Source: Bilabrum cf. latius
Lineage: Eukaryota
DNA: 64,000 bases
Direction: 5' to 3'
NCBI GenBank assembly: GCA_965178125.1
Contig: OZ237754.1
Coordinates: 186,001 to 250,000 of the forward strand
Part shown: piece after piece, positions 2,504-63,163 of the stretch
How positions within the stretch are numbered: the first letter of the stretch is position 1
Layout of the letters: each line of letters opens with the position of its first letter
Notes under the pieces: model-generated
Told to the model about the DNA's origin: nothing
Seen by the model: only the letters and a program-made list of their open reading frames with translations
Databases searched by the model: none
Position numbers and translations under genes: made by a program

Positions 2504-5500
2504 TTAGCTCTGCCTGCTGTCGTACGAAGCCTGCGTCTCTCGCCGGTCGCCCTCGCTCCCCGCCCCATCGCCGAAATCTTCGGGGACGTATCCCCCCCAC
2601 GAGGTATCCGTCATCCCACGCACACCTCCGCCGCGAGGCATGGCTTGCACAGTTCGACCCCGGTCGCCATCCCCTTCGGCTTCGCCTCCCCAGCGCGTCC
2701 GGCCCCGGCCGCTCCCGCTGCCGTAGGCTTGCATCCTGCCGACTCCAGCGTCCAGCGGGCTGGGGGGCGCGCGGTCCGCTGGTGATCTGTCCGGTCGGAT
2801 CTGCGGAGTGCCCAGCTCGAGGCTCGGTGGCATCCCGGGTGCCTCCCCCGTGTCCCCGTCCGACCTCTGGGTGTTCGAGGGGCGGGAGGGTCCAGAGCCC
2901 GCGGACGTGTGCACTGACCTGGACTCGACCTGCGTGGACAGCAGGGGTCGGTGCCGCTGGGACCCGAATCGAGACCTGGACCGAGACAGCGCCGCCCCAT
3001 TCCGGTCCGAGTACGACTGCGACATCCCAGAGGTGGGCGCTCCAGCGGCGGCGGCAGACCCTGAGAGAGACACGGCCCTGTCGTCCAGCGAGGAGCCGAG
3101 CTTGCCATCGCCCCTGCCGCCTGTGCCGAGGGGCAGCGGGCGCGCGCGGGGGGACCCAGACCCCGGCCCGCGCGGCACCATCCGTTGCTGGTGCTGCTGC
3201 CGCTGCATGTACTCTTGCCGCTGCCTCTGCTGCTGCTGGTATTGCTTCGCCTGCGGGTCTGCAACGAGCGGCCCGGTGGCTGGGCTCCTCACCAGCCCTG
3301 CCCTCGGCGAGGACGACGACTGTCCTCGCGGTCGTCTGCCCGCCCTCCCCGGGGCACTTGCCTGCATGAAACCGCTGGGGGGTAGACCGGGGGAGCGAGG
3401 GGATGCCTGCATGTGGTCCGTCCCGGTCGTGGCAGCGGGCATGGGCGCCAGCCTGTAGGTGGATCCCGTGGCAGACCCAGACCTGCCCTGGGACTGAGAC
3501 GCGCTCGCCGATCCGCGGGAACCCCTGGGAGACCTCGGTTGCAGCGAGACGACAGAGGGGCGCGGGCGGGCGCCGCTGGGACTCCCAGGCGACCTCAGCC
3601 CGGAGAAACCGCTGAAATCCGTCGTGGTGGTCTTCCTCCCCCTGCCGCCCCCGCTGGTGGCGCTGCCAGCGCCCTGTCCCGAGCTGGAGGTGCTCGCTGC
3701 GTGGCCCCTGCTGTAAGAGGACCGCCCCCCGCGCGTGGACGAAGCGCTGGGCAGGTGGATGCTCCTGGGACCCTTGCTCTCGGACGCTGGCACGGAGGAC
3801 AGATAGCCCCGGGGCACGCCTTCCCTGTCCACGTCCTTGCCACCGTGCACGCTCGCAACAGCGCCGCCGGGCGGTCCGGGGCCTGGGTCCGTGCCCGACG
3901 CCTCTCGTCCTGCGCCTGCCGTACTATGCCCGGCGGAATCGAGTCCGGGGCGTCCGTCCGAATTCCTGCTGGCCCTGCTGGCCCTGTCTCCCTCGCTGGA
4001 CCAGAAGCTGGCGCCGGAGGGGACCAGGTTCAGCACGCCTGCCTCGCTCACCTGTCCGGTGTCGCTGACGCCCGCAGGCGTCGCTCCGCTCCGCTGGCTC
4101 CCGGACCCCCGCCACGGCCCGCCAGACTCGCGGTAGGCCAGTCCGAGCACGTCGCCGTCCAAACCCCCGCCTGCACCCCCACTTCCCCCCCTGCCACCGC
4201 CAGCAGCGCCAGCGCTGTCAGGGGCTCCGTCCAAGCCGACAAAGAACCCGCTGCTGCCCGCGCTGTGGGCGAACCCCCCCGCCCGCTCGAAGGCCACGGG
4301 AGCATCGCCGGACAGCCCACTGCCCCCAGGCACCGGCGACTCGCCAGCAGCCCCTGCGCCGTCGCGGCCGCTGCTGCCGCCCAGGCTCTGAGTCGGGTCC
4401 AGTGGAGACCCACCGGCCATCCCGCGGCCCGGCCCCCTCCCCGCGCCCCCCCCCACCTCCACGTCGCGGTATTTGGCCGCCACTTCGATAGCCGCCAGCC
4501 TCCCTCCGTCCTGCCTCAGCATCCTGTTCCGCAGCCCCGCATCCCTGCCGTCGTCGTCCATCACGCGCCCCGCCTCGTCGCCCTCCACGGGGAAGTACTG
4601 CAGAAAGTCCGCAAACTCGTCCATCCAGTCGTACGCCTCAGTGTACGCGCCGCAGCACACGGAGCTGCAGCCCTCGGTGCATTGCACTGCAGGAAGAGGT
4701 TCCCCGAACTCGGTGCCGGCCACCGACGCCGTGCCCATCGCATCGCTGCGCATCGACACGGCATCCCCCTCCAGCTCAACCTCGGTGGCGCTGCCGTCCC
4801 CGAACTCGCCGTGCTCCTCGCGGTCGTGGTCTCGCAGCAGCGGCTCCATCAGTCCGCCCGACTCGGCCGACGACACGCGGCTGGGCCCAGCCCTGCTTCC
4901 AACGGGCTGGCATCGCCCCGGCTCTGCCAGCACCCCGCCTGCACGACGGCTGCTGCCGACGTCGCTTGGAGACTGCTGCAGGAACGGGAAGTCGTCTGCC
5001 TCCAGCGCACGGCCCTCGCGGCTGCTCTCGCGGTGCCTTGGTCTCCTCTCTCTGCTATGCGAGACTCCATCCATCACACCCTTGCTGGACTGTGGCCCCG
5101 TCCCGTTCAGCGGCTCGTGATGGGGCCGCGGGGCATCCTTGTTCCAGAGGCGATACAGGGCGTGGGGCAGCCTCCTGCCGTCGTTGGGCGAGTCGCTGTC
5201 CCTGGTCGCCTCCCTGTCCGGCTCATCGCTGTCGCTTGCTGGGGCTGCGATGGTCAGGCTCCTGCCGCTCCTGTGGCTGCGGTTGCTGCGCTGCGACCGG
5301 TGGCTGGACCTGCGCTGGGCCCTTCCTCCCTTTGCTCCCGTTCCCTGTCGGCTGCTCCTGCTGCGGGTCCTAGATACCCTTCGAGCAACGTTTTTGGATC
5401 CGCCCCCGGCAACCCTACCAGCGTTGGCATCTCCGTCGTCGTCACCGAATAAAATCGCCCTGTACCCTCCCCCGAACCCTCTGCCTCGCCTCCCTGAACC

Positions 5501-7639
5501 GCCGTACGCCCCGCCCGCACCCCCGCCGCCAAAGTCATCCCTCCTGTCCTCGAATCCCAGCGTGTCCAGGAGCTCGGAGGCCGGTGACTGCCTTCCTCCA
5601 CTGATCCCATGGTCCAGATCAAGATCACTGGAATCGCCCCTGCCCATCCCGTGACCGCCATGCCGGGGTGGTGCCGGCGGTGGCCTTTGCACGCTGCCCT
5701 CGCCAGATGCCTCTCGTGCAGCCATGCGCCCATGCTGCCCCGATCCGCTCATCATCGCCTGCACCACGTCTTGCGGTGGCATCCCGCGCCCCTTGGGCTC
5801 TCGAAGCAAGCTGCCGGCGCCCATGCGGAGCGTGTCTGGCAGGTCCGTGGAGCGCGATCCCGCGTGCCAGCCGTCGTGTCCACCGAATTGAGACACTCCT
5901 CCCACGGGAGGGGCGGGCGGCACCCGTATGACTAGGCTCTTCTGTGCCTCGCTTGTGTGCGCCCTCTGCCTCCCATACCCTCCCATGCCGTCACCTGCAG
6001 CAGCAGCAGCGGCAGCAGCTGCGGCGTCCGTTGCAGCGCCGCTCCCGCGCCTGGAGTTCCCCGCGCCGCTTGGCCCCGAGGACTCGCCAGACAGGAGCAT
6101 GCCTGCACCCGATGAGCCCACCGCTAGACTGACGCTGCTGCCCCCGGCTGGCGCGCCTCTACCCATCAGGCCGAACGAATACCGGCCGTTTCCCGCCCTC
6201 CAAGCCGAAGCCGACATGGCCAGCTGGCTGCCCGGCAGCGAAGACTCGGCTACGCTCCTCTGTGACGACGAAGCCTGGCTTGAACTGAGCCCGTCACCGC
6301 TCCCTTGTTCCCTACCCCCGCTTCTCGTCCCGCCCATGCCATTCCCACCCCTACTTTCCTCCCCCTCTCCGGGTCTCACGAAGCCCACCCTCTCCGCCAT
6401 GTCCCGCAGCGTGACCTCTTCGTACTGGGCGCACAGCCTGTCCCGCCGCATCCTCCTCCAGCGCTGGAACGCCTCCGCCCTTCCTCTGCAGCACAGCGGG
6501 CCACACACGGCCAGGCACACCGCCTCCTTCCGCCCGCACTTGCACAGCACCCACAGCGCCCGGCGCCACCCGTGCGGGGGCTCCTCGGCAGTCAGCGCCA
6601 GCGCCAGTGCCACGGGCAGGGTTTCCACCAAGCCGAAGAAAAGGACGTGCTGCAGCTTGACGGGGGGAAAGGTGCTAAGTCGAAACACGTGCTGGGGAAT
6701 GACCTGCCAAATATCAAAGGCCGCCCGACCGAAGAAGAGGAGCGCGAGCAGTACGCTGAGCGCCACCGTGGTGGTGTGCGAGCGCGGGAGGGCGGTCTTG
6801 GCGTACGTGTCAGCGTCCAGGCCCCACAGCTCCGAGGCAAATTGCGACAGGAGCAGGCACAGCGACAGGTACACGATCGCGCTGAATACCGGCTGCATGA
6901 TGGCCACGGCCCGCGCGAGTCCCTTGCTCGTGGAGGACTGCAGGGTGAGCGCCACCTCCACCACGTTGAGCACGCCCAGGACCAGGACCGCCGTGCCGTA
7001 CACGATGGTGGCCAGGCTCACGTACATTCCGCAGCATCTGCAGGCCCCATCGTTCTCGCTCGTGCTGCTGCCGCCGGACCCGCCGCCGGACTGCGGCCTC
7101 TGCTGAGGGCCCAGGGCAGGCTAGGCCGAGCTTCCGGCCGCCGCCGCTCGAATCTACTCCAGCAGCTCGAGCCCGCCCTTGACGTCCACTGTTGTATTAA
7201 TAGGCGTCACTGGGTTGTTGTCGCTGTCCAGATCAATTCCTTCGCTCCCAGCTAGCAGGGTCGGTAGCAGCGAGGAGCGTGTCAAATATGCATATGAAAC
7301 CAGCCATAGAGCGAAGCCTGCAAATTGAACGGTCGTCGGCAATAAATATGCGATTTCAACCCAGTTGGTGGCGTCTTCGTTGCTGGCAAAAAAAACTAGG
7401 CAGCGCAAAGGCAACCAGAGCAGCGCGAGCACGAGAAATACCTGGTGGTACGTCAAATTACATCGGGCCCTTGGTCCCCGCCCCTATGAGATTCCTAGCT
7501 GTAAAAGCGCCCATACCCAGCAAAAAATGTACATGCTGCATATGATCCATACCCATGGATTTAACACCGGCGCGTAGACATGGATGTGATGCGAAGGCTG
7601 GATTGGCGACGGGTCTGGACCGGCCACCAAGCTCGGCAT
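2504..7639 (-). CDS. GPR137/THH1-TOM1-like multi-pass membrane protein with a very long Gly/Ser/Arg-rich C-terminal tail (~1711 aa if TAG=Gln)
   Basis: One frame from ATG 7639 to TAA 2504, crossing 3 TAGs (7484, 7154, 7121). Segments LTYHQVFLVLALLWLPLRCLVFF, YLLPTTVQFAGFALW and FFGLVETLP resemble the GPR137 motifs [31 protein letters not shown] and WELLP. Confidence 0.75.
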
Positions 7640-7835
7640 GGGGTGCTTAGAACCCCGGCAGGCACAATGAGCTCGATTTCAATTGAGCGAGCGAAAACGT
7701 AGTGCTGAACTTGCTCTGTTCGCGTATAATGGAGCGCCGAGAATCTGGCCGAGATTCGATGAAGGTTCGTTTGGCCCAACTTGGAAGGTTCGACTCGTGC
7801 TCGCTAGCGAAGCACTCGTGGTGGTGCGGCTTCAA

Positions 7836-10800
7836 TCAACGAAATTTTCGGACCACCACCGCGTCCTCAATCTCCCGGTGAAGCTGCACGAACTCTGGCG
7901 GCACCATTCGGTGCAGGGCAACGCCTACCCACGCCCGCACCCGTGCTCCAATGGCACACCGCACCGCAGCCCGCAGCGGCGCCACCACCAGCGGGTGCGC
8001 CCCGACGACCATCAGCACCGTCGCGATACACCGCACCGCGAGCACGATCGACTGCACGCTCAGCCCAGGCATCGCTGCAGCGAGCCCCTTGCCCGCGCCG
8101 CCTGCACCAGGACACAGGTCCCAATCGCAGCCCCCCGTCACCGCGCCTTGCACGGCGGCATGCGCCAGCAGCGCCCTGCACGCCATCGCCACCGTCGACC
8201 GCCCGGCGAGCTCGATGTGCGACACGCGCAGCCGACTCCTCAGCGCTGCAGCCCGCGCGCGACCCTCCGGCGAGGCCCCCTGGCCCCCGCACTCGCAGTC
8301 CTCGTCCCTTGGCCGCCAAGAGCAGAGGAGGGCGTAGAGCACGGAGCGGCGGGCCCAGGCATGCACGGGGACCTGCTTGCCCTTGCTGGTCGATGGCACT
8401 GCCATGGCCTCTTGCACCTCCGATGGCTCGCTGTTCGCCGCCCACAGCCTCCACTGAAAGCACGCATCGTCGTGCACCAGGTCCACAGTGTACGTGCTCG
8501 CTGCCAGCCGAGATACAGCCATGCCGTGCCTCCAGAATGCAGCGCACTGCGGCACACTCGCCTGCCAGTCGAGCTGTCCCGCACGATCCACTCGCTGTCC
8601 GTACCACCACCCCCACCCCCGCTGCTGCTGCTGCTGCCCGGCACGCACCACAGAAGTGGTAGTGCTGCCTGACCCCGCCGAGTGGGAAGCTACGAGGCGC
8701 GTCCCGCTGCCGCTGCCCGCGCTCAATGACGCGCTCAGGGAACCGCTCGAGATGCTGCTTGACAGCGAGAAGCCGCTGTTGTCCCCGGAGAGCATAGGCG
8801 GATCAGACTCCTTGGCTCCGCTTTGGGGCTTGGATGCGCTTGACGACACGGGGCCCGTCAGCCCCACAGGCGCTGTCACCCCAGCAGCAGCATCATCATC
8901 GCCCCCGAATCCCTTGGACAGGCAGCCTCGCACCTGTTCCTCGATCGGCTCTGCCACGGCCGGTACGTCGCAATCGATGCACCCTAGCGGCACAAAGGTC
9001 GGGAGGGGTCGCAAGCAGTACTGCCCGTCGAAGACAACCGCTAGATTGGAGAGGCAGACACCCAGCTGGGACCAGATGCGAGGGCGCCAAACGGTCGAAT
9101 ACATCATCGGCTGGTGTCTGCGCCGCATGGCCGTTAGGTCCGACAGCACCTGCATGGCAGATCCCGCCTCGAGACCTGCCCACAGGCAGTGCAGCAGGGC
9201 GGCCACGATGGTGCTGGGCTGCGCGTGCCCCAGCCTCGAACTACCAAGCTGCAGCTGGCGGACAGTGCCGCTGACTCGCCTGGACGTCCACATCCAGTTC
9301 CTGGCCGCGTCCATGTCGCCGAGGCGCCGAGCACCCACCTTGGTCCCGCCCAGCTGTCCCTGGGCCGCGGGCGGTATCGACCGAGGTCGCCTCTCCGGAG
9401 CGAAATCGCTGCTCCTGCTGGACCTTCCCTGCTGCCCCCTGCGATGGCAGGCTGGGCTAGGGCTTCGAGAGGCAGTGGACGCCTCCTCCATCTGCATGGC
9501 TTCCCGCTTCTCTTCCATCTCCAGCTGCTGCAAGAGGCCGGCAGACGCGCGGGCCCTGTCGTCCGAGTCGTCGCTGCCGCGCGGTCCCGCTTGCTCATCC
9601 CCCGATGCAGCAGCTCTACGCATCACCCCCAGGCCCGACTCAGAAGATGTGAAGCGCCGCAGCGAAGAGGCATACATGGCACCCGAGCGGCGAGACGCGG
9701 TGCTCTCGTCCATCATGTCTTCATCCCCGTCCTCGTCCTCGGCCTCGTCGTCATCCTCTTCGTCACTGGAGCCCTGGCTCAGGAACGGGCCCTAGCGCTT
9801 TCTTGATTTGCCCGCATCGCTTTCATCTGACCCGCTGCTGTCGCTCGAGGAGCCGCCCTGCCTCCGCCGCCCCTAGGCTCTTCGTTCCCTGCTTCGCTTG
9901 CCGGAAGAGACCGGAGCCCACAGGGATCGCACAAAGTCGATCGAGCTGCGCTTCTCCAGGCAGAGTGCACGCCGACTCGGCTTGGCTGCGCTTGCTGCGC
10001 TGCCGGCGCTGCCGCTCCCAGCTGCCCATCGGCGCAGGGCAGGCAGCAGCTCGCCATCGAACTGGGCCGGCACGCATTTGGGGAACGCTTCCCTCCCGTC
10101 AAAATCGCAGTCGTCCTGCGCCTACGTCCTGTCGGGCAGCTCGATCGACTCGAACAGCTGCTGCACGTGCTGCAAAACGTCGTGATTCACCAGGTCTGCC
10201 TGACGAGGGGCCGACACGGGGGCAAAGGAAGATACAGCGCTGGGCACTTTCGCGGCTCGTAGAGTGAAGCGAGCCGCCGCAGACTCGAGGGCAGCGTCAC
10301 AGGCGGTGCCGGGCCCATCGGATCGGACCATCCCCGGAGCCGTGGGCTCTTTTGAGCCATTGGCTGCCTCCACTGCCTGACCGGCCGATGCAACATCAGG
10401 GTCCACCTCTTCGATCCCCATAACCTTGGTCTCCTGCCGCTCCTGCATATCTAGGGCCTCAGCTATGTCCAGCAGGCGGTCATCCAGCGGATCATCGTCT
10501 CCATCGTCATCCTGCATGGCAGCCCGGGCAGAAGTGTCACCACTGCTTCCAGCTGCATCCGATGCGGCAGCAGCCGCAAACACATCCTCGGCAGATTGCT
10601 TCACAACCAGGGCAGTGAGCGTGTCCGTGTCCAAGAAACGGCACGCGGCGATGAGCGACTGCAGCTTGCTGTGCCCGTGCACTTCGCCGCCTGCGAGTTG
10701 GCCGGAGCTCTTCTGGGATGCATTGTCCCGCGCCATCTCAGAGACCAGCTGCCAGGTGGCATGCAGCCCAAGGAACGCCGCGCACACCCTCAGCCCATAC

Positions 10801-13706
10801 GCGGACAGCGAGTTCGGGTTGGTCAAGTCGGTCTCTCCGGCGGCCTCGGACGCATGAGTGTTACCTGACTGCTATGCCCTATTCTAGCCGGTTGCAGATG
10901 GACTCGCGGCGGGTCGAGAGGACGTGAAGAGAGCGCTCTGACCTCCGATGCTCGGTGCCGCAACATGGGGCTTCTGGCCGACCTGCGAGGACACTGCGGC
11001 GAGAACGTCTTCGTTGCCTCGCTTGACCCTCTCGCCAGTCTATTCATGTTGCGGACTCCATGGCGTATACTTGGGCGCCTTTCCTCTAAGTACCTGGCTG
11101 AGCTCCTTGCGGACGATGGCAGTCATGACAGATGGGCGCCAGTACCGAGAGACCAGTTGGTGTGACTCCTCGGGCGATATGCTGAACAGCGTATTGCCTT
11201 CCAGGTCGCACACGGGTGCCCCCAGAGCCTCGAAAAGGTGCGAGACGCTCCGATCCACAAGCTCCGCCACGGCGTCACTCGCAGAGACGAGCGCGTCCGC
11301 GCGCTTGCTGAAGGTAATCGTGAAGGCGCCCTGCTGCCCCGCTCGAGCCAGTCGACCGAGCAACGACGGCTCCCACCTTCGCCGCAGCAGGGCAACAACG
11401 CTGTCCCGGTGCACCCTTCTGGCCTCCAGCTCTAGCTGCATCTTGTACTCGTCCGACTGCTTCAGTGCCGTCATTGCCTTCTTCGTTTTCAGTCGTGCTT
11501 CCTTCTATTTGGCTAGGCGAGCCTTTTCGGCTGCAGCGTGGGACGCATGGTACGAGTCGTGCTGCTCCGATAGATCAGTGACGCGGGCATCTATGCGGCG
11601 GCGCTTTGCCTTGCTCTAGACCTAGTGCAACACGGTCGCGTCGCCTGCACGCGAGCCTTTGGGACGCGAAGCTGCTAGCTCCACGTCTGAGTCGTCAGAA
11701 TCGCTGGGATTGAGGTCGATCATGATGCCCCCGCTTGGAGCCTTGGCCATGCTTGTGGACTTGCCCGCGCCCTAAAGCTACTTGCGCTGATCAGTTGCGC
11801 CCATGCCTGCTGCCGCTCGAGATCGCTTGACGCCTGCCTTCTCTGCAGCATTCGGGCCAATGCCCCTTGCGGCCACTCCATCCTCAGCATCGTCCGAAAG
11901 GTCAATCTCTAGGTTCTGTGCGCCTGTAGCACCCAGCGAGCCCACCTGTTCGGCCCTTTCCATCTGCTGCTACCCAGAAATGTCCGCCAATTTGAAGTCC
12001 AAATCAAAGGCCATGTCTTCTTCCGTAAGATCTCCCTCGCCCATCCCAAGACCGGCCGCAGCCTCCGCCCCTCGGGCCTCGTCCAGAGCATTTGCACCCA
12101 CATGCCCGAACTGCAGCATGCCACCGGCCTGCCCTTTCCCCCCCTGTGTGCCCCTTTCCAACGCGCGGGTCCGAGCAGCCCTCGCCTCCCCGAAAGCCTC
12201 GTTGCCCGCCTGCACCGCCACAGCCCGCTCCTTGGCGGCTGCCACCTGAGTGGCCAATGGCAGTGTCCCCGGCCGGCTCTTCACCCGCACCAGAGAGGAC
12301 GTGGCAGACTGGCCCCTTCTGCCCGAGATGGACGTGAGCTTGGATCGCCGCCTCTTGAAGCGATTCTTGATGGAAGGCATTAAGGAGGAAGACCCGGTGC
12401 CGGGCATGATGCCGGTAGCAGTGCCAGCCTTGCTTGACGATGACGAGGGGCGAGATGCCTACGGCTCACGAGCAAGCGCAAGACGTGCAGCCGCATCGGG
12501 TGGCTACGAAGAGGCGCTCGGGATCTCAATGGGGGAGGAGGAGGAAGGAACGGCTGCTTCTCGGCTGCTGTCGCTGCTGCTACCGGTGCTGCTTGTGCTG
12601 CCGGTGCCCTTGCTAGTGTTGCTGTCGCTGCTGCCCCCGGTGCTGCTCGTGCTGCCTTCAGAGCTGGTTTGCTGCCCGTCTCTACTCAAGTGGCTACGTT
12701 GCTTGCTACCAGCAGCAGTGGGGCTGTTCCGCACACCCTTCGACGAGAATGAGGTTGACGACGAAGATGATGCTCCAGCAGCTCGTCCTGATCTGGCTCC
12801 GCACTCCGTAGGGGCAGAACCTGATCCTTGCTTCCCGTTGTTGTTGACGGAGCGCTCCATGGCTGCATTTAGACTCATGCTGCCCTCCAGCACCTTAGCC
12901 ACCGGCGACCTGGGGCCGAGGACATCCAGTGACCCAGCTCCAGGCGACCGCACTGCCTGCATTGGCTGTCCCCCGCGCGTGCTGCCACTGTAGGAATCGC
13001 ATTCGAGCGGTTTCAGCCTATAGTCCGAGTCGAGCAATCCATCGGCATTGGAATAGACCGTGGCACTGCCGGCGGCACTCATGCTCGCACTCATGCTCGT
13101 TCCCTTGCCCTCGGTCCGACTGGAGGCGCTCGGCGGTGCCGACTGCCGAGCACCCCGCGAGTGCATGCGGCTGGCGGACACTGGCTCGGGATTTTCAGGT
13201 TCAATCTCTTGCTTGCTGTCTGCGGCAGGCATGGATAGCATGGGTCGGACGCTCTCCAGCTCGAGGCGCTGTGCCTTCCGCTCGGAGCGAGCACCTGCTC
13301 GGTGCGCACCAGAGGCTGAGGCAAGGCTCCGAGAGCGCTATGACCGCTCAGTTTCTCTAGTGTTCTGCTGGTTTGTTCCTGCTCCAGGCGTCTTGTAAGC
13401 AGATGCTGACTTGTGGGGCGAACGTGCCGACTTCACAGCCATTGCGGGCTTGCTCACAACTGTTGCAACTGCCTGCTGGGAGTTCCCGCCTGTTCTCGGA
13501 GACGTGTTACGGGCAAACTACTATGCACTCCTCGATACTGGACTGTTCGATATCCCAACGCGTGCGCGCGGAGACACCGCCCGCTTCGATGAGGATCTTG
13601 AGGAGCTTTTTGAGGCAGATTTAGGCGACTTGGCCGCGCTCTTCGGTTGCTTACCGCTCTTTGTAGGCGGTGATGCTGTACCTCCAAAAAGAGTGAGTTG
13701 CTTCAT
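7836..13706 (-). CDS. Large hypothetical protein (~1956 aa if TAG=Gln): disordered N-half, helical C-terminal region
   Basis: ORF-track fragments 13521-13706, 12504-13241, 11970-12407, 11778-11963, 11040-11474, 10122-10826, 9873-10073 and 7836-9716 share one frame and are separated only by ~17 TAGs (e.g. TAG-CAG-CAG at 11970). Single TGA at 7836. N-terminus MKQLTLFG. Confidence 0.75.
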
Positions 13707-14030
13707 ATTCTGCGCGGGACAACGGCTTGAAGTATATTGCAGTTCGAATCGGCGACAGCATCACGTCGTTCCCGGGCAGGTTTGGACTTCTTTACAGCGT
13801 ATTAAATTCATCGCTAGGCTCACCAACAAAAAAACGCTGACGTAAGATTACTAACAATAGAATAGTGATAACAACACTTTGTTATATCTCCGGGGCACTC
13901 GGCAAATTGATTTGCAAGGATTGAATTCGAAAATTGCTCGCAAGCGGAACTAGTCCGGCGCCGCGGACTCGGAGTAGTAATAAGTTCAGCGACCTTTATC
14001 CAGATTTTACTGCCGGTTCATACCTGAATC

Positions 14031-17000: not shown

Positions 17001-17044
17001 TGAGGAGGGCCCCATCGAGGGCAAAGGGGCGGGTGAGGAAGTGA
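14031..17044 (+). CDS. Glycosyltransferase family 11 (alpha-1,2-fucosyltransferase-like) membrane protein, ~967 aa
   Basis: Exon 14031-14115, intron 14116-14225 (GTAAG...CGCAG), exon 14226-17044 crossing TAGs at 14924 and 16433. N-terminal TM segments. GT11 motifs GLSNVLFQY (before the first TAG), VVHVRLGD and STSTFSWWGAFL (after it). Ends in TGA. Confidence 0.8.
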
Positions 17045-17555
17045 TAGGCTCTGTAGCGACCTGCGATGGGCGCGGGGGGAGCAAATAGCGCGTTATGGGA
17101 CGTGTCCCGTCACGCGTATGGCTTGCTGCAAACAACGCTGCTCACGCAGAGTCACCCAGCGCAATGACACAGTAGCTGCTCCATATGTCAGCATTGGACG
17201 CTTCACTGCACTCCAACCGGCACCTCGCCTGCCACCAGCCTCTGCGACCGAGTGCGCGGCGCCGCCTTGCGACCGCGCGACGGAAACGGATCGACACGGC
17301 AAAACAATCTTGTGAGGCCCATCCAGCGGGAACAAGGTTATAGAAAGCCAGACACACTGTGCCCAAGGTTTCGTTACTCTCTTCATCCGTCACTGATATG
17401 CGTGAGTCTTGCGATGGGGCCGCTATCAGAAATCATCCAAAGATCACGCGCTATTTGTTACGGTACCTGTAGTCCACTGAATTGGCATAGTGACAGCGTG
17501 ACTGCATTGCTCATTAGCTTCTTGTTGCTTCCTTTCTAGTAACTTACGCGCAGCG

Positions 17556-32766: not shown

Positions 32767-32905
32767 TTTGTGTGCCAGATTCTTGTTAGCTTGATGGTTA
32801 TTTGCGCGTGCTCAACTTGAGCCCGGCGGTGCAACTGCACCGCACTGCCAACTTCCACAACACGGGACTATTTCACGTAGCACACCCGTTCACTACTAGC
32901 CAGCC

Positions 32906-45154: not shown

Positions 45155-45349
45155 CTCAAAAACGTAGTGGGAGCGCGGAATGCGATTGTCTGGATAGTGA
45201 GAATTCGACCAGGTGTCGAGTGTTCACGCTCCGGATGGCGAGGATCGGATCAATCCATCGCAGTGCAGGAAGCTACTCAAAATGCGTGAAGCGCCAGTTT
45301 GGCTGCAACAACAGCCTACAATAATTCTACGATGCACACAGCTATATGA

Positions 45350-47560: not shown

Positions 47561-47760
47561 CGGTCAAATCAGCCGAAAAGAAAACACTATATTTGCCAAG
47601 GCGCAGAGTCAAGACAATTTTTGCCAAAGTACACAAAGAATCAGGACAAAATGACGAAAATCTGTTCCACAAACGTGATCACTCGTCACATGCTTGCTAG
47701 ACCACTGCGGCTCGGCCGTCGGCATCCGTCATCGATCACGGACACAAGGTCACGCACACG

Positions 47761-49351: not shown

Positions 49352-49382
<31 letters not shown>

Positions 49383-52206
49383 TGCAAGCGGGCCGCATGC
49401 GCCTCTTCAGAACAGCGGGCGGCCATCCTCCGTCTCCATGCGCCTGGCCGGACTCTCTAGACTGCAGCCACCCGTGGCACCGTTCGGCCACACGGGCACC
49501 ACCTCCATGCCCGGGGAGTGGAAGGGTGTGGGGGAACATCGGCAAGGTAGCGGAAGGAGAGCAGCGGTGCGCCAGGGTGGGCACGGCCACGGATAGCACG
49601 GTAGCTCCATGCAATCTTCCACACGGACGGGCACCACCGCCCCGGGTGCAGCCAATGGACACGACCGGGATCGGGACACTGGTTCCTCCTCCAACGACCT
49701 GGGGCTTGATCCTTCAAGGAGCGTTGGGAAGGATAGTCGTTCCAGTGGCCAACGCGGGTCCTCAAGCTCTTCAGCGGCGAACAGCAACCGTGATGGCAAC
49801 GCGAGCGGAGGTGGCAGGAGCGGGCCCGACGAGCGGTAGTCAGGCAGCAGCGGCAACAGCAGTGCGCGGCTGGTCAGGGGGGGCAGGGCTGGAGAGAGAC
49901 ATCAACGCAAGGACTCTAGCGGAGCTGACAGCGGCGGGGATCTCGATCCAGTGTCCTAGGCCGGTGGAGCTGCCTTCCTCGTGCCCTCCTCGCACATGCG
50001 AGCCCCCCACCGTTCAGACTCGGGCTCCGACTCGGGCTCGGGACAGTCTGGGGTGGGGGTGGGCCGGCTCGGGGTGCCTTCAGGGACCGCAAGCCACGGC
50101 GCTTCATCCCACATGCAGGCCGTGCTGGGGTACCGGGGAACCCAGCCGGACGACGACAACGAGTACGGGCAGCCCGAAGGACAGGCAGAAGGGCCTGGTC
50201 GATTTCAGCCGGGTGCCACCGCCACCGCCACAGGCAGCGATGTGGGAGGTCCTGGAGGGAGCGGCATGGACGCTCCAGGTGAAGCTGCAGCGAACCAAGT
50301 GGTCGAGGCGGGACAGGCCACCGGTACCGATGGTGCTGAGGCATCTCGAGAGGATGTCATCAGGGTGGCTCAAGAGGCTGCGCATGCCGTGCTCGGAGGA
50401 CAAGTTCCTACGGAGGTGCGCCTGTCTGACGCAGACTCTGCGATGGCAATCCCTCCGAACTGCAACGTGGAGAATGAGATAGCCAGGAACACGATGCTGG
50501 ACTCGCGAGAGAGTTTCATGATCTGCAACGGGCTGGAGAACTAGGTGATCGAGCAAGGCGTGGCCGTGTGCACCGTCATGTTCGTGTCGGATGGGCTGCA
50601 GAAGATGTGCGGCTTCATGCCCGGCGAGCTCGTGGGCTTGCCGTGGACAGTGCTTCTGCATCCCGAGCACCGCTCGGAAGACGCTGCCTCGATGTAGCTC
50701 ACCACGATGCGCCGCGCAGGCATGGCGGAGGCGGTGGTGCAGTGCAGGAAGAGGGATGGCAGCTGCTTCTGGAACCACTGCTTGGTCGCACCCGTGATCC
50801 ACAACAGTCCAGGCAGTCCCGTCATCCGCTGGGCGTTCCTCATGAAAGAGGTCACCCCGGAGTTCGCCAGAGAGCGCAAGCTCCAGCTGGCCCAGGTCGA
50901 GGTGGCAAGCGCGCGGCAGATCAGGCAGGTGCAGCCGGGCTGGGGCAAAGGCTCACGCGCAGGCGCGAGTGCTTCAGGTGCGCACAATCGCCGCGGCAGG
51001 GCAAGGGCAAGCCAGCAGTACGCAGGCTAGCGAGGGTCGCGCCCGTCCAGCATGGCAGGGATGCACAGCGGCAGCGGCAGTGGGTCCGGGAGGGGTACTC
51101 CAGCCCAGTACCAGGAGGGGTTCGGTGGTAGACCCTTCCATGGCAGCGGTATGCCTCCCGTGTCGGCTCTTGGAATGAGCATGGCCAGGACTGGGGGCAG
51201 CAGCGGGCACAGCAGCGTTCACATGCGGCAGGTCAGGACCTCCGGTTCCAGCGGGGCCAACGCTGCCTTCGGGGGCCTGCGAGACCCTGAGACCGGGATG
51301 GCTCCGCTGAGCAACGGCAACAGCAGCAGCAGCAGCGGTGGTAGTGGTGGACACTTCGGGCTGTCTGGTCTCGGGCCCGTCGAGTGGCTTCCTCCTCGCA
51401 CTGGCGACGGCAAGCCCCGCGGCATCATCGGGCGCGAGCATGACAGCAGGGACGCGTATTCAGTCGCTTCTTCGATGTTCTCGAGAGAGGCTGCGGCATT
51501 CGGGGGCAGGTCGCGGAGCCTGAGGGCAGCTGGCATGGATGGGTTGGCGCTGCCGCCTAGAGGGGGAGAGGGGGGGACTGGCAGCAGCGTAGATTTAGGC
51601 AGCGCCGAAGTGCAATCGTACCAAGGCTCGCTGTAGCCAGGCAATGCCTCGGCATCGACGACCCCCCGTGCTGGAATCATGCATGCTGGTAGCGATGCCG
51701 CTAGAGGGGCTCAGCTACTGCCTTCTGGGTTTGAGAGAGGTAGCATCGGTGCAGATGGCAGCAGTGAGTTGGGGGTGAAGCATGGATTGGACAGCCTGCA
51801 AGGCGGACCAGCTCCGAGCCGTGCTCGAGGCAAGGCGGGTCGTGGCGCTCCAGTCGGTGCCAACCAGAACGGGGCCACCCAAATGATGAGCGGGGAAGAG
51901 CTCGATCACCAGCGCTCTGGCTCCGCAGAGTCGTTCCCGCGGATTGGTTCTCTGGCGAGGCAGAAGCACAATGGTCCCGCGGCTGCCGGATCGCAGATCT
52001 CCATGCCATCGACGTCGCGCCCCTTTGATTTGGCGGCGGTAGCACTGCATACACATCAGCACTCTGCAAGCTCGAAGGGGGATTCCCAGCGAGTGCCAGT
52101 GCAACAAGCTCTTGGGGCCGGACACTCGGCTGACGCTCAGGAGAAGGCTGCGATGGCCGGTGATGACCAGGAGCCCTCTGCAAAGCGGAGACGAGTGTAG
52201 AATTGA
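47761..52206 (+). CDS. bZIP transcription factor with a downstream PAS (LOV-like, Cys-less) domain, ~1397 aa
   Basis: Exon 47761-47858, intron 47859-48110 (GTAAGA...TCGCAG), exon 48111-52206; ~20 TAGs. Basic region/zipper KQRTRHNARRARLRRRLDLLVLE(Q)EAQKLEGENSII. PAS region 50490-50860 (SFMIC..VMFVSDGLQKMCGF..ELVG..RKRDGSCFWN..VAPV..MKEVT). Poly-Q tracts; C-terminal KRRR. Ends in TGA. First exon is inferred. Confidence 0.75.
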
Positions 52207-52444
52207 CTTTTATGAATTGCTAGCTGCAGAACTGTTGTTGAATATACACGAAAAGTTGACTGGAGCACCTGAAGAAAGAAGCAATTTGGCAGCACGTGCA
52301 GACTGTGACCAGGGCACGCCGGACACAGTCACCAGCTATCGTGTTCACAGCATCCGCCCCCACCCCTACGTCTCTGTTGCATGCCATCTTCGACTAGAGG
52401 GCACCCCGCCGCTCGTCCGGGCCTGGGTACTCGGCACCTGCAGC

Positions 52445-54046
52445 TCAGGTGCTGCCAGCTCCAGAGCTGGCCGAGGTCGTGCCGGCCTCGTCGCCCTTGG
52501 CACAGCTTGCCGCTGCGACCCAAATGCGCCTTGCGATGCCCCCCCTTGGGCTGCTGCTGTCGGCCTCCTTGAAGCACCCCTTCAGAGACTCAAGCACCTG
52601 GCGCCTGGCATCGAGCAGCCGCGCGTCACCGGCTGCCGCCGCCGGGAGGCTCAAGGGGAGCTTGCACTGGAGCATTGGGTCGCTGGATGCGCCTGCACGA
52701 GCGCCAGATGCAATGTTTCTGGATCGTTTTGCGTCTGGTTCTGCCCTGGACGCGCGATCTTCCGTGGCTGATGCCGGCACACTGCGGCTGGAGCTGCCTT
52801 GAGCACCAGATTGCTCATCGCACTCCGGCTCCCTTTCCACCCGAAGCTGCCTCAAGCACTCTGCTTGCCACTGGAGGCCGTACTTGGGAAGATCTTCATT
52901 CGCCTCGTGCCATTTCTCCATGGAAGACACGATTCTCTGCCTGTGGGCGGGTGAGAGATCGGCGTCTGTGGACAGGCACCACCCGGGTATCCCCTCTTCC
53001 ATGGAGAGGCACTCGCGCAGAAGGGGCAGGGCGAATCCATGGCCCATGCACAGCTCGTAGTCGTCGAATTGGCTGCTTTCGTCGGCTGCCGCCCGACTGT
53101 CGGACTTGGAGATGTACGTGTAGGAGGTGTCCTCGACACTGGTGCCGGTCGAAACCTCGGCTGGCGAGTTGTTGTCGCCGAGGAAATGGCAGATGCAGTC
53201 GCCTTCTGCGTCTCCATAGACTACAGAATTCATCCTCAGTGAGGAAAGAAGCTCCGCTGCGATCGCGACGAGCGTGCCGTGCCGTGCGACCAAAGACACG
53301 GGGTTTGCGTCGCCCCAGGCCTGCCCTTCCTTGGCAGATCCACCACTGCCTGCGAACACTTCTTTCTGGGCCCTTCGTAGCTCACGCATGGCAGTCGACA
53401 GACGGTACAGATCTACCGTGTTCATGACAGCCTCCTTGGAAACACGAACGCTCCCCTCGCTCTCCGGGCAATGCAAGCCAGCGGCTGCCGGGGAGCCCTT
53501 GGGTATGCCAGGCACCGATGAGTAGCCGTTTAAAAGCATTCCCATAGCATTGTCGCCTGATGCCAACCCGAAAGCTGTCTTGCGCAGCTCAATTGGGCCA
53601 TGTGCTGCTTGCTTCGAGCCTGCCTCAGTGCCTGGTGCCTGTTCATCGCTCTAGCCCATGAGCGAAGATGCGAGACTTTTGGCTTGTTGATTGAGCATCG
53701 TTAGCACAGTCTTGCGCGATTTGCTCTTCATATCTTTGAGGGCCTCTGTGGATGTACGCAGCTGCTCCTCAGCTGCTCTCTGGGCTGATTTGGCTTGCGC
53801 GAGAGTAGTCTCGCGCTGGCGTAGCTCCGAGGACACCCTCGCATCTCTTGATTGTAACCTTCCAACAGTCTACTCGAGACTAGTCTTCTTTTTCTGAGTG
53901 TTGCGGTGCCTGGCTTGCACTTCTGCCAGACGCTCTTCCAGCTTCTTCGTCCTCGCCTGTGCCTAGATGAGCTCCTTCTCTTGCTGGCCGAAAGCATTTA
54001 TCACAGAATCTAGCTTATCTTTTTCTTGATCAAGGTACGATGCCAT
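52445..54046 (-). CDS. Hypothetical protein with an N-terminal coiled coil (~533 aa)
   Basis: One frame from ATG 54046 (MASYLDQEKDKLDSVINAFGQQEKELI(Q)AQARTKKLEERLAEVQ...) through 3 TAGs to TGA 52445. Confidence 0.65.
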
Positions 54047-54249
54047 GACACAGCTTGACAAGCCCTCTTAGGAGTGAAGTAGTATCAGTGCTCGCTTCGC
54101 GGTTGTGGTCGCACAGCGCGGCCGGGCGCCGCAATATCTCGGGTGTGGTTCCGCAAAGCCAATCGAATTTTGGCGTATTTCTGCAGACTGCATGCAATTA
54201 AAAACTCAAATTAATCGCTAGGCAATCAATTTACGGGCGCTTGTGAGTG

Positions 54250-56538
54250 ATGCAATCGCAAGATCCGGAGGAGGAGCCTTCTTCTGTGCTCCTACTGCGG
54301 AGCCCTCCCGTCGCGGTAAGCGCAAAGTCACGCGGAGCGCTGGACGGTAGCGGCGAAATCGGTGGTGACAGCGATGAAGATAAAGGTGCTGGTGTTGTCA
54401 TTTGCTGCCGTGTCTCTCGCGCATCTTGTACGGACTTCGTAGCAGTGGCTCGAGCTCGACGGCTGGCAGACTCTACCGTTATTCGGACGCTGCTGCTAGT
54501 TGCAAACGTGTTTGTATCGCTGCTTTTGATGGTACTTTGCTGTGAGGCTGCGTGGGATCGCGGCACCCAGCAGTATCACACTGATGCCGGCACGGAACGG
54601 CTGCGATGGGCGATCGTCGTGCTTACAGCTCTGCTCGAAGGCCAGCTCGTAGAATACTACGTGAACGCGTACCGCGCAAAGAGACGATTCGTCGTTACAT
54701 TTGATTCAAGCGGGCATGCCAGGCTGCACCAAAAGAGCAAGCCGAGGAACCTCTAGCTCTGGATGCTCGCCGTGGAAATGCTCATTTGCGCCCTCATCCC
54801 GCTCCCAGGCGACGCCCTCGGCATGTCGGTGCGCTCCGGCCTGCTCATGTTTCTGAGGCTTTACCTGGTGTTTCGCCTGCTGCATCAGTGCACTGCGGTG
54901 TACGCGTTCCGGGACGACTTGCTGGCTATCCACACGGCCGCGGGTGACGAGGCGGCCAGGGTCGCCGCCTCTGTCCAGTTCGACGTGGTCTTCTCCCTGA
55001 GGACCCTCTTCGACGCGCAGCCGACTCTTTTCCTGCTCGTGATCGTACTCGCGACCTATTTTCCCATCTCGTTCTGCATCTACGTGCAGGAGAGGGACGA
55101 GCAGCCGGCCGAGTTCAACCTCGCCGGCTCCCTCTTCTTCACGGCCGTCGCGGCCACCACCGTGGGTTTCGGGAGGCTCGTCCCGGTGGATCCGTGGGGC
55201 AAGGCGCTGGCGATCCTCGCCTGCTGCTGGGGCATCATCATCCTCTCGCTCACGGTGACGGTGGTGCAGCGTGGCCTCGCCCTCACGGACGCGGAGGCTC
55301 TCGTCTGGGAGGCAGCCAAAGGGGTCTCGGAGAGGGTCGCCTCAGCCTCCCCGCATGATAAGAATGTGACGGGGGTCAGGTTGCTGACGCGGGAGGGCGA
55401 GGACGGGAAGGTGGTCAACCGGCGGGGCGACTGCATCATGGACGCGGCCTCTTTGCTGCAATGCTGCGGAGCGGTTGCTGGCGGGGCCGACCGCCTCTTC
55501 GCCCCTGAGCCTGGCAGCACGGGGGGGGCGGGATCTACCGGCGAATCTGGCTCGCACGCAGGGTATCAGGAGCTGTCCGAGGGGGGCGGCCGCGCATCCC
55601 TTCTGGGCGCTGGAGGTGCTGGGCCCAGAGGAGGCAGGGGTGGCTACGGCACCTCTGGCGGCGGACCCAAAACAGTCCCACTGCGAGCAATGGGACCCGG
55701 CGGCAAGCCCGTGATCGACGGCAGCAGCGTGCAGCCGAGCAGCCCCGGCGGCCGCGTGCTGCCTTTGCATGTATCTCGAGAGGCCAGCGTGGCAGCCATG
55801 ACTCGGGAAATGCTGGACCAGCAGGAACAGGAGCAGGAGCAGCACGATGCTGAGATGGGAGGCAGGCAGCCCCAATCGAGAGCAGGCAGGGCAGCTGGTG
55901 CTGGTAGGATCCTTGCAGATCCCCCTCTGGAGAGGGACGGGCAGGCGGGACACTCGCAGACGATCGGGCTGCTAGACGTATCCCTGCCTCCGGTGGTCAG
56001 GGCGCTGTCTGCCGGTGGGACTGGCGCCTATCGCCGACTGCCGCGGTCCACTGCTGGCCCACGCAATGGGGCAAGATCCAGGAGCGTATCCGATGCATCC
56101 GTTGCATCGACTGGCGCTGGCGATGCTACTAGGCGACCACAGTCTGGACCCGGGGGAACACATCCCTCACCGCGCCAGGACCTGCGAGGTGGCGCAGACG
56201 AGCCGAGCAGCCGCGCGGGTTCATCGGGCCAGCTGCCTGGGAACAGCAGTCCGCTGGGATCTGCTCGTCGAGATCGCCGGCCCTCTGCCAGGCTAGACCG
56301 GGCAGGCTCTCGCACTAGCCTGGGCACGCACGGGCACTTTGACGTGGACGCGGGAGATGGTGCGCAGGCGTCGGAGGATGCGCACCTGATGGACGTGCCC
56401 ATGCGGCTGCTTTTGCTGCGGGTGGTGCGGGAGCTGGCTGGCCTCAGACACGAGGTGCACTCCCTGAGAGGGCAAGTGAGGGCGCTTGAGCAAGCGAGAG
56501 ATGATCCTTCGGTGCATCTGAACCGGCATCAGCAGTGA
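54250..56538 (+). CDS. SK/KCNN-like potassium channel subunit (~762 aa)
   Basis: TM segments on both sides of TAG 54754. SK-type motifs EMLICALIPLPG and LMFLRLYLVFR; pore SLFFTAVAATTVGFGRLVP. C-terminal coiled coil. Ends in TGA. Confidence 0.85.
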
Positions 56539-62131: not shown

Positions 62132-63163
62132 ATGGCATCTATTGCAGACTCGTCGCTTGGATCAACTGCGTTGTCAGATATATACGAATCGGATTAGGAG
62201 AGCTTGCACGGAATTATCACCGTCATCAAGAAGTCAGGGCAAGATGGAGGTTCATTCGAGATGGACCAGGACAGCATCCTGATTGGGCGGTAAGTTCAGT
62301 ATCCTAATCGGACGTATCTCGTGTACAGCTATTTATCAATATCATGATAATAGTTGGCTGCCAGAATTTGCTATATATACCATGAATGTGCTGTTCAGGT
62401 TGCCAGAACAGTCCACCACACCGCGTGGCTCTTGTGCTCTTGACTGCCTTTCGCAGGTCTGAAGACGCCAACATTCGCATTCGGGCCCCTACAATCTCCA
62501 GGTCTCATGCGAGTCTTACCGTGGGGTCAAATGGCGCTGTTTGGATCAGGAACTTGTCGAAAACGAAGGCAGTGCACGTGAACGACGAGAAGTTCGGCGC
62601 AGACGGCCAACGACCCCTTCGCCAGGGTGATATCTTCAGCGTAGGGGACAGGAAGTTCCGCTTTGATTATCGTGAGATATTGTCATGAGTTTGAGTGGGG
62701 TAGCTGAGATCAGGTACATCAGACTACTCCTGATCATCGCGCAGCGTCACGTGACAGAACCCCATCCATGCTCTCTTTCTTGAGCTCGCAGCAGAGGACA
62801 TGGAAGGAAGCGAGGCCGGCCCTACCGGTACCTTCCGCCCTCCAAAAGCCCCCAAGATGACCCGCTTCGAGGAGGGCGAGCCCACCATCGATCTCGCCGC
62901 GCAGGCCGGCGGACACGACGCACTGCGGAACGCCACCGCGGCGGCAAACCGCAGGAAGAGCCTTCCCTCCGGCGAGAAGCGCATGCCCACTGTGCGTACG
63001 CCCGGCCCTGTCGCCGCGAGGGCCGCTCTCGCGAGCCAGGCTCCCATGGAGGAGGACGAGGAAGAGTCGGGGCAGGGGCAGGGGAGCGGCTAGGGAGTGT
63101 CACAGCTCCGGCCCACGCCCGCCTCCGCGAAAAGGCAGCTGGTCATGGCGTCATCATCATCAG

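What the first reader, a model, noticed from the sequence alone, without database searches (positions are those of the whole stretch)
2504..63093. Variant nuclear genetic code: UAG is a sense codon across the whole window
Seen: in 17 genes on both strands, standard-code ORFs abut in the same frame separated only by TAG. I counted about 80 by hand, and saw no internal TAA/TGA and no frameshifts. Several TAGs split conserved folds: between the acid/base and nucleophile motifs of the GH-A enzyme (33785), between GT11 motifs (14924), inside an SH3 (31789), PB1 (23703), bZIP zipper (48181), PAS (50542, 50695), the folate-receptor domain (23408), and before the last NHA helix (40536). Established: UAG-only reassignment is rare in nuclear genomes (reported e.g. 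in the metamonad Iotanema spirale and some phyllopharyngean ciliates; NCBI table 15 has this form). Inference: this GC-rich genome does not look like a ciliate, so it may be an independent, possibly unreported origin. Standard-code annotation would shatter most genes here.
Basis: partly seen in the sequence, partly recalled or inferred. Interest (0 to 1): 0.95.

Follow-up and report, generated by a model that had tools for sequence, protein, structure and literature searches.

The report
UAG read as glutamine, nuclear genome
In this stretch of a GC-rich protist genome the usual stop signal TAG sits inside most genes and is evidently read as the amino acid glutamine, a rare change of the genetic code that makes standard gene prediction cut these genes to pieces.

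Summary
In 17 long open frames (16,609 codons after the first ATG) there are 69 in-frame TAG. All 17 frames end in TGA (15) or TAA (2). Four TAGs lie inside single Pfam matches: DLH, Abhydrolase_1, SH3_1 and PAS_9. Gene-sized public contigs (run X5) lack two GT..AG introns, and one carries a poly-A end. They hold 26 TAGs unchanged, so the TAGs are neither spliced out nor edited.

A syntenic metagenome contig of a relative (L002, about 60% protein identity) also has in-frame TAGs. At well-aligned codons TAG pairs with CAA or CAG (Gln) 4 times, with Ala twice and with TAG once. Gln makes up 16 of 700 residues there. A third relative has Q at TAG 19983. Sequence context also ranks Gln first.

Best reading: UAG = Gln, with UAA and UGA as stops. 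This is the NCBI table 15 form, known from Iotanema and some ciliates, but here the genome is compact and GC-rich and TGA is the main stop.

I could not examine the tRNA(CUA), eRF1 or the organism's identity, because no genome is held. It is a new member of a known kind, possibly an independent origin.

The parts
2504..7678 (-). Open frame of 1724 codons: membrane N-terminus plus a long low-complexity tail. TAG at 7486, 7156, 7123 (first base of the codon, gene direction). TAA stop.
7836..13760 (-). Open frame of 1974 codons with 17 in-frame TAG and a TGA stop. No Pfam family. A relative's fragment, P0129 (81% identical), covers residues 763-906 and stops within 3 codons of TAG 11042.
14120..17044 (+). 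Open frame of 974 codons with a weak GT11 match below the Pfam cut-off. TAG at 14924 and 16433. TGA stop.
17502..18188 (+). Small Cys-rich membrane protein gene. TAG at 17835, 17874, 17943. Ortholog in L002 4621-5040(-), 58% identical. Window TAG 17874 pairs with relative CAA. Window CAA 17922 and 17931 pair with relative TAG. Window TAG 17835 pairs with relative GCA.
18598..19323 (+). Conserved gene of unknown family. TAG at 18769 and 18844. Ortholog in L002 3086-3823(-), 64.9% identical. Window CAG 19144 pairs with relative TAG in a conserved motif.
19453..22176 (-). Protein with two alpha/beta-hydrolase domains joined by an (AP)n linker. TAG at 21732 (inside the DLH match), 20751, and 19983 (inside the Abhydrolase_1 match). 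The TAA stop aligns with the relative's TGA stop.
22619..23509 (-). Folate-receptor-family gene in two frames, probably split by an intron. TAG at 23408-23410, upstream of the Pfam match. Two further TAGs at the frame end may be intronic.
23935..32766 (+). Open frame of 2943 codons with SH3 domains and 11 TAG. TAG 31789 lies inside SH3_1 (residues 2604-2650). TGA stop. A poly-A loose end in X5 sits at 32796.
32795..34507 (+). Secreted enzyme-like protein with no Pfam hit and 6 distant homologs. TAG at 33785 and 34316. TGA stop.
35472..37721 (-). Secreted protein; BNR/sialidase-like by language-model features only. TAG at 36587, covered unchanged by X5 record 9.
40290..45185 (-). Na+/H+ exchanger gene. 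Exon 2 is 40290-44683, the intron is 44684-44925 (GT..AG on the minus strand), and exon 1 is 44926-45185 with the ATG. Eight TAGs, all inside X5 record 11 with 0 differences.
45350..47563 (-). Helical-repeat protein of 737 codons. TAG at 46165, covered unchanged by X5 record 12 and X8 record 27.
47707..52246 (+). Transcript of a basic-zipper-like plus PAS protein. Exon 1 is 47707-47858 with the ATG, the intron is 47859-48110 (GT..AG), and the frame ends at TGA 52204-52206. It has 17 TAGs. TAG 50695 lies inside PAS_9. Six TAGs fall within 13 codons of a Q-rich stretch, and one heads a run of nine Q. The last TAG (52198) lies two codons before the TGA.
52445..54067 (-). Coiled-coil-like protein. 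TAG at 53965, 53872, 53653.
54247..56538 (+). Ion_trans_2 potassium-channel-like protein. TAG at 54754.
62755..63999 (+). Frame open at the window's end, with no Pfam hit. TAG at 63091-63093.
534..2357 (+). Pelota/Dom34 gene (not eRF1) with no TAG. It is one of five TAG-free genes. The others are 34703-35203(-), 37844-40099(+), 57916-59755(+) and 60251-61918(-).

Best explanation
The organism reads UAG as glutamine throughout its nuclear genes and ends translation only at UGA (mostly) and UAA. This is the form of NCBI table 15.

Shown here: TAG lies in frame inside real, transcribed, conserved genes. It is kept in spliced transcripts. It interchanges with CAA/CAG between related species.

Inferred, not seen: a tRNA-Gln with anticodon CUA (one base away from the normal CUG) decodes it, and eRF1 no longer recognises UAG but still recognises UAA and UGA.

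TAG makes up about 9% of putative Gln codons (69 against CAG 530 and CAA 162). It is rarer in genes with strong codon bias, which suggests it is decoded less efficiently than CAG.
For: (1) 69 in-frame TAG in 16,609 codons of 17 frames. All frames end in TGA (15) or TAA (2) and none needs TAG as terminator.

(2) 4 TAGs lie inside single Pfam-matched stretches: DLH 144-223, Abhydrolase_1 683-800, SH3_1 2604-2650, PAS_9 828-923.

(3) X5 contigs are gene-sized and skip 44684-44925 and 47859-48110 (GT..AG), which the 28-kb X1 contig retains. One has a poly-A loose end at 32796. Both splices keep the reading frame and supply the ATG exons. These contigs cover 26 of the 29 coding TAGs of 32700-52300 with 0 other letters. 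X8, from another study, has one GT..AG joint and covers 5 TAGs unchanged.

(4) L002 is a syntenic metagenome contig of a relative: 67% nucleotide identity and 58-65% protein identity over 3 genes. It carries 7 in-frame TAG in about 1,680 codons.

(5) Of 1,224 aligned codon pairs, 11 involve TAG. At the 7 with at least 6 of 10 identical flanking residues, the partners are Gln x4 (CAA, CAG, CAA, CAA), Ala x2 and TAG x1. Gln is 16 of 700 residues at such sites, so 4 of 6 by chance is about 4e-6 (my arithmetic).

(6) P0130, a third relative (60% identical), has Q at TAG 19983 within an otherwise identical HEVLM_SGIV.

(7) A neighbour-composition classifier ranks Q first at three window sizes. At +/-5 residues: Q 8.5, E -0.5, K -3.7, S -6.9, L -7.1. 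With known codons hidden, the true residue was first in 520 and in the top three in 899 of 1,160 trials.

(8) The abhydrolase TAA stop aligns with the relative's TGA stop.

(9) No nucleotide bias follows TAG.
Against: Two of the six well-aligned partners are Ala. The four poorly aligned partners are Ser, Arg, Gly and Trp.

Distant-family columns at the two abhydrolase sites do not favour Q. One column reads R 53, L 17, K 14, Q 1 of 114. The other reads A 20, H 10, L 10, F 10, Q 3 of 114, with 29 gaps.

Both PAS-region TAGs align with Ile of the hERG PAS domain.

No tRNA gene is in the window or the loci, and no eRF1 was seen.

The library type of X5 is not on record. The tool itself marks X5 'RNA? 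(probably DNA)'. Its cDNA nature is my inference from splicing and the poly-A end.

TAG 52198 lies two codons before a TGA and could be a terminator.

Only 64 kb of one genome and 6.6 kb of one relative were examined.
Confidence: 0.88

Rival explanations
1. UAG is a sense codon but stands for another amino acid, such as Ala, Leu (as in the rhizarian exLh) or Ser (as in Scotinosphaera).
For: Two well-aligned partners are Ala. The family columns and the hERG PAS alignment put hydrophobic or basic residues at four TAG sites.
Against: Gln is the partner at 4 of 6 well-aligned sites, against a 2.3% background. Two Ala out of 6 is expected by chance about 16% of the time, since Ala is 85 of 700. P0130 has Q. 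The context classifier puts S at rank 10 and L at rank 11 at +/-5 residues, whereas real L codons averaged ranks 1.8-3.2 and real S codons 1.0-5.5 in calibration. TAGs sit in and beside Q runs.
Confidence: 0.06
2. UAG is ambiguous. It is read as Gln inside genes but still ends translation in some contexts, or it is read through by the ordinary tRNA-Gln(CUG) against a weakened eRF1, without a dedicated tRNA(CUA).
For: TAG 52198 lies two codons before the TGA of its gene. TAG is rarer in genes with high GC3 (Spearman -0.52, p = 0.03, n = 17). No tRNA(CUA) was seen.
Against: 0 of 17 frames need TAG as terminator, and 16 have long, domain-bearing sequence after their last TAG. There is no context signal after TAG. 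A frame with 17 TAGs could hardly be made by partial read-through.
Confidence: 0.05
3. The TAGs are not translated. The genes would then be pseudogenes, or the TAGs would be removed by splicing or RNA editing, or they would be assembly errors.
For: None beyond the standard-code expectation.
Against: Only TAG interrupts the frames; there are no TAA, TGA or frameshifts over 16,609 codons. The same letters stand in contigs of four studies. Spliced contigs keep TAG with 0 differences. TAG 19983 is conserved as TAG in a relative whose flanking protein is 75% identical.
Confidence: 0.01

Closest known systems
Iotanema spirale (Fornicata) nuclear code: UAG = Gln, UAA and UGA stop (PMC5304391, passages read)
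   Same: Only UAG is reassigned, and to glutamine. UAG is never seen as a terminator. It was inferred from in-frame UAG aligned with Gln in orthologs.
   Different: I. spirale ends genes with UAA in 104 cases and UGA in 15. Here the counts are TGA 15 and TAA 2, in a 62% G+C genome. Whether the two organisms are related was not testable.
Protocruzia tuzeti and some phyllopharyngean ciliates: UAG = Gln (PMC11687900, discussion passages read)
   Same: Same codon and same amino acid, with UAA kept as a stop.
   Different: This is a 64-kb stretch of about 22 genes on both strands, with short spacers, GT..AG introns and high G+C. From recall only, ciliate macronuclear genomes are AT-rich and phyllopharyngean ones gene-sized. 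No ciliate marker was tested.
Rhizarian exLh (UAG = Leu) and Scotinosphaera (UAG = Ser) (PMC5304391, PMC8271138, passages read)
   Same: UAG alone is reassigned, while UAA and UGA terminate.
   Different: The amino acid differs. Here Leu and Ser rank 11th and 10th by context, and neither is a well-aligned partner.
UAR = Gln codes (NCBI table 6: many ciliates, Hexamita, some ulvophytes, Amoeboaphelidium; listed in PMC11687900)
   Same: A stop codon is reassigned to Gln, presumably through a tRNA-Gln with a changed anticodon.
   Different: UAA is still a stop here. It ends 2 of 17 frames, one of them confirmed by the relative's stop at the same place, and it never occurs in frame.

Membership tests
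UAG = Gln, UAA/UGA = stop nuclear code (form of NCBI table 15) | In-frame UAG inside conserved, expressed protein-coding genes | tested here: met
   69 TAG in 12 of 17 frames. 4 lie inside single Pfam matches. 26 are kept in spliced X5 contigs.
UAG = Gln, UAA/UGA = stop nuclear code (form of NCBI table 15) | UAG aligns with Gln in orthologs | tested here: met
   4 of 6 well-aligned non-TAG partners are CAA/CAG, against Gln at 16 of 700. Counting all 10 non-TAG partners, 4 are Gln. P0130 has Q at TAG 19983. Distant-family columns at two sites do not favour Q.
UAG = Gln, UAA/UGA = stop nuclear code (form of NCBI table 15) | UAA and UGA still terminate and are absent in frame | tested here: met
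   Terminators are TGA 15 and TAA 2 of 17. The abhydrolase TAA aligns with the relative's TGA stop. X5 contigs end 40-92 bases after five of these stops, and one shows a poly-A end about 30 bases after the stop. The in-frame absence is partly by construction of the frames.
UAG = Gln, UAA/UGA = stop nuclear code (form of NCBI table 15) | UAG is not used as a terminator | tested here: inconclusive
   0 of 17 frames need it, but frames were extended through TAG by design. TAG 52198 lies two codons before a TGA. A genome-wide set of orthology-defined gene ends is needed.
UAG = Gln, UAA/UGA = stop nuclear code (form of NCBI table 15) | A cognate tRNA-Gln with anticodon CUA | not testable with these tools
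   No tRNA gene is in the window or in L001/L002. No whole genome is held.
UAG = Gln, UAA/UGA = stop nuclear code (form of NCBI table 15) | eRF1 with changed stop-codon recognition | not testable with these tools
   The only gene with an eRF1-like fold in the window is Pelota/Dom34. No eRF1 sequence was available.

The most novel reading that the evidence does not exclude
This is an unreported, independent origin of the UAG = Gln code, with UAA and UGA as stops, in a clade of GC-rich, compact-genome, intron-poor protists that are neither ciliates nor fornicates. At least two members about 40% diverged in protein sequence share it, so it is an old trait of a clade. The relative's in-frame TAA opposite a window Lys codon (L002 849-851) could even mean that the code is still changing in that lineage. 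That last part is much less likely than the rest.
Probability: 0.4. Interest if true: 0.85.

Novelty: new member of a known kind. Interest (0 to 1): 0.7.

Why it matters
Nuclear code changes that touch UAG but not UAA are rare. The papers I read name only a handful of lineages. They bear on a long-standing question: how can eRF1 and the tRNA pool tell UAG from UAA?

A case in a compact, genome-sequenced organism for which several public runs exist would let the tRNA(CUA) gene and the eRF1 changes be read directly. A diverged relative that shares the trait adds a comparison.

There is also a practical side. Standard-code annotation breaks at least 12 of about 22 genes in this window, one of them into 18 pieces. 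Public protein collections already hold fragments of the relatives' genes that begin or end near such TAGs (P0129, P0132).

Tried and rejected
- Whole genome: none is held, so the tRNA, eRF1 and 18S searches were impossible.
- Rfam and tRNA scans of the window and of L001/L002 found nothing.
- No RNA holder is listed for the stretch. X5 and X8 are only guessed to be RNA.
- Homologs of the enzyme-like gene: 6 distant ones, of which only one covers a TAG site, with Ser at 27% identity. This was uninformative.
- A 'shorter' search with the 1974-codon protein gave one fragment, which does not cross a TAG cleanly.
- The first metagenome scan, with that same protein, found no relative.
- PDB alignments put the SH3 TAG opposite Ser/Leu of p47phox and the PAS TAGs opposite Ile of hERG. 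They were too few and too distant to decide the residue.
- Family columns from the 150 best of 617 hits (114 alignments cover each site) do not point to Gln.
- The protein atlas gave only fold-level leads, BNR-like and ARM-like, and no taxa of use.
- Placing the organism failed. The best named hit of the sugar transporter is a EukProt record from TSA GECG01 (49% identity). I could not establish its species.
- Ten paper searches found no report of UAG = Gln in a GC-rich non-ciliate. The library lacks most subscription journals, and supplements were closed. That gap may matter for lists of code variants.
- Rejected readings: a ciliate-type UAR = Gln code, because TAA terminates; motif-driven read-through, because there is no downstream bias; and eRF1 for the gene at 534-2357, which is Pelota.
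Full report
**What is there**

The window is 61.6% G+C. If only TAA and TGA are treated as stops, it resolves into long frames on both strands of 2943, 1974, 1724, 1508 and 1372 codons. Under the standard code the longest frame has 1539 codons.

I took 17 frames chosen by length, codon-usage score or Pfam match. They hold 72 in-frame TAG, 69 of them after the first ATG, in 16,609 codons. Twelve of the 17 carry at least one. All 17 end in TGA (15) or TAA (2). Further TAGs lie in two small conserved genes (17502-18188, 18598-19323), in 62755-63999 and in the folate-receptor gene.

I defined the frames by the absence of TAA/TGA, so that absence is partly circular. The lengths are not. Out of frame, the same DNA carries 16.8 TGA and 2.5 TAA per 1000 codons. 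In-frame TAG (4.15 per 1000) is near its out-of-frame rate of 6.17.

**Are these real genes, translated across TAG?**

Pfam finds two alpha/beta-hydrolase domains, SH3, Na_H_Exchanger, PAS_9, Ion_trans_2, Arm, Sugar_tr, Folate_rec, Peptidase_C1 with its I29 propeptide, Tae4 and the three eRF1-like domains. Four TAGs lie inside one continuous domain match:
- 21732 in DLH
- 19983 in Abhydrolase_1
- 31789 in SH3_1
- 50695 in PAS_9

**Transcripts**

Eight of ten listed public runs, from four studies, hold the stretch. None is on record as RNA. Laid on 32700-52300, run X1 gives a 28-kb contig that runs unbroken over 32700-49344.

Run X5 instead gives gene-sized contigs separated by gaps of 47 to 641 bases. 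They skip 44684-44925 (GT..AG on the minus strand) and 47859-48110 (GT..AG). One has a poly-A loose end at 32796, about 30 bases after the TGA of the 2943-codon frame. Both splices keep the frame and bring in an upstream exon with an ATG. For the exchanger, that exon encodes a membrane N-terminus ending in LPPILGMLI. I therefore take X5 to be cDNA, although the tool marks it 'RNA? (probably DNA)'.

X5's listed pieces cover 26 of the 29 coding TAGs of the stretch with no differing letter. The two in 32795-34507 are not among the pieces listed. TAG 49351 lies in a skipped repeat. X8, from another study, has a GT..AG joint at 38215/38315 and covers five TAGs unchanged. So the TAGs are not spliced out, not edited and not an artefact of one assembly.

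**Which amino acid?**

Distant homology was ambiguous. The SH3 TAG aligns with Ser or Leu of p47phox, and the PAS TAGs with Ile of hERG. The two abhydrolase sites fall in columns dominated by R/L/K and by A/H/L/F.

Close relatives decided it. The representative search found fragments 60-75% identical to the abhydrolase protein. One of them, P0130, has Q at TAG 19983 within an otherwise identical HEVLM_SGIV. Cluster look-up showed that two fragments lie on one 6.6-kb JGI contig, which I fetched.

That contig, L002 (55.5% G+C), is collinear with window 22176 to 17500 at 67% nucleotide identity. Three orthologous gene pairs gave 1,224 aligned codon pairs. Eleven of them involve TAG.
- At the seven with at least 6 of 10 identical flanking residues:
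  - window TAG 17874 pairs with relative CAA;
  - the relative's TAG pairs with window CAG 19144, CAA 17922 and CAA 17931;
  - window TAG 21732 and 17835 pair with GCC and GCA (Ala);
  - TAG 19983 is TAG in both.
- The four poorly aligned pairs have Ser, Arg, Gly and Trp.

Gln makes up 16 of 700 residues at well-aligned sites, so four Gln among six partners has a chance probability near 4e-6. Two Ala among six is unremarkable, because Ala is 85 of 700.

A separate test used only the window. A naive-Bayes comparison of the residues around TAG with those around each amino acid ranks Gln first at +/-3, 5 and 8 residues. Leu ranks 11th to 14th and Ser 8th to 10th. When 69 occurrences of a known codon were hidden, the true residue ranked first in 520 and in the top three in 899 of 1,160 trials at +/-5. 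TAGs also stand in Q-rich runs: six within 13 codons at 48592-48628, and one heading nine Q at 49351.

**Stops**

The abhydrolase gene's TAA aligns exactly with the relative's TGA stop, so TAA terminates. No frame requires TAG as terminator. One TAG (52198) lies two codons before a TGA, so it cannot be classified. No nucleotide preference follows in-frame TAG, which argues against motif-driven read-through.

**The relative shares the code**

L002 carries 7 in-frame TAG in about 1,680 codons, the same density as the window. P0132, a fragment of the same relative (100% identical to L002 over the residues fetched), begins 11 codons after TAG 19983, which is TAG in L002 too. P0129 (81% identical), from a relative in another collection, ends within three codons of TAG 11042. 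The trait therefore belongs to a clade whose members differ by about 40% in these proteins.

**Mechanism**

Translation of UAG as Gln, with UAA and UGA as stops, is shown as far as sequence can show it. The decoding parts are inferred from what is established for other reassignments (PMC5304391, passages): a tRNA-Gln with anticodon CUA, and an eRF1 that has lost UAG recognition. Neither could be looked for, because no genome is held and the window has no tRNA. The gene at 534-2357 with eRF1-like domains is Pelota (human Pelota 8e-65).

TAG density falls with GC3 (Spearman -0.52, p = 0.03, n = 17). The five TAG-free genes include the most conserved ones: Pelota, the cathepsin and the sugar transporter. 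This resembles the low UAG use in ribosomal-protein genes reported for the rhizarian exLh (PMC5304391, passage).

**Comparison with known cases**

UAG-only reassignments named in the passages I read (PMC11687900 discussion; PMC5304391; PMC8271138):
- rhizarian exLh (Leu)
- Iotanema spirale (Gln)
- Scotinosphaera (Ser)
- Protocruzia tuzeti (Gln)
- several phyllopharyngean ciliates (among them Gln twice and Leu)

The present code equals the Iotanema/Protocruzia form. It differs from I. spirale in terminator use (UAA 104 and UGA 15 there; TGA 15 and TAA 2 here) and in base composition.

I could not place the organism. Its nearest named protein hit is a EukProt record from TSA GECG01, at 49% identity. 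I recall this may be a halophilic bicosoecid, but no call confirmed it. Ten full-text searches found no report of this code in a GC-rich non-ciliate. The library lacks most subscription journals, and supplements were closed.

**Verdict**

The finding is a new member of a known kind of code. Whether it is an independent and unreported origin depends on the organism's placement, which is the main open step.

Noticed in passing
L002:849-851 against window about 21540 (abhydrolase gene, minus strand): The relative has an in-frame TAA where the window has AAA (Lys). The frame stays open and conserved for 700 codons after it, and the far domain is 75% identical. It could be a contig error, a nonsense allele, or a sign that UAA is also read in that lineage. 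There is only one instance.
   Followed up: partly
window 34703-35203 (-): A small gene matches Pfam Tae4, the type VI secretion amidase effector family (E = 4.9e-19), in a eukaryotic, intron-bearing context. It may be a gene acquired from bacteria. It has no TAG.
   Followed up: no
window 534-2357 (+): A Pelota/Dom34 gene (human Pelota 8e-65) with a long Gly/Ala/Ser-rich C-terminal extension of about 220 residues. Its first roughly 95 residues seem to lie upstream, perhaps across an intron. It should not be mistaken for eRF1.
   Followed up: partly
window 60251-61918 (-): A sugar-porter gene has relatives at 98% (Logan) and 84% (JGI) identity. After a set of unnamed environmental proteins, its best named hits are haloarchaea (Natrinema, Halostagnicola, Haloterrigena, 39-41%). 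This is a weak hint at habitat or gene transfer.
   Followed up: no
window 52198-52206 (+): The basic-zipper/PAS gene ends ...V-TAG-AAC-TGA. This TAG could be either a Gln codon or a terminator. It is the only such case among the 17 frames.
   Followed up: no
window 20990-21270 (-) and L002 about 1100-1250: An (Ala-Pro)n linker of about 30 repeats between the two hydrolase domains is kept in the relative, with interruptions.
   Followed up: no
window 39684-39685 (+): One X8 contig carries three extra bases (A, then CT) in the Arm-repeat gene. This is an in-frame length variant between samples.
   Followed up: no
window 57916-58737 and 59072-59755 (+): A cathepsin-L-like protease is split between two frames (I29 propeptide and Peptidase_C1), probably by an intron. 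It has no TAG and the highest GC3 in the window (0.87).
   Followed up: no
window 50455-50907 (+): The PAS domain behind the basic-zipper-like N-terminus resembles the LOV/hERG type, but it has no Cys where I recall the LOV flavin-binding Cys to be. The layout recalls aureochromes without being one. This rests on my reading of the alignment and on recall.
   Followed up: no
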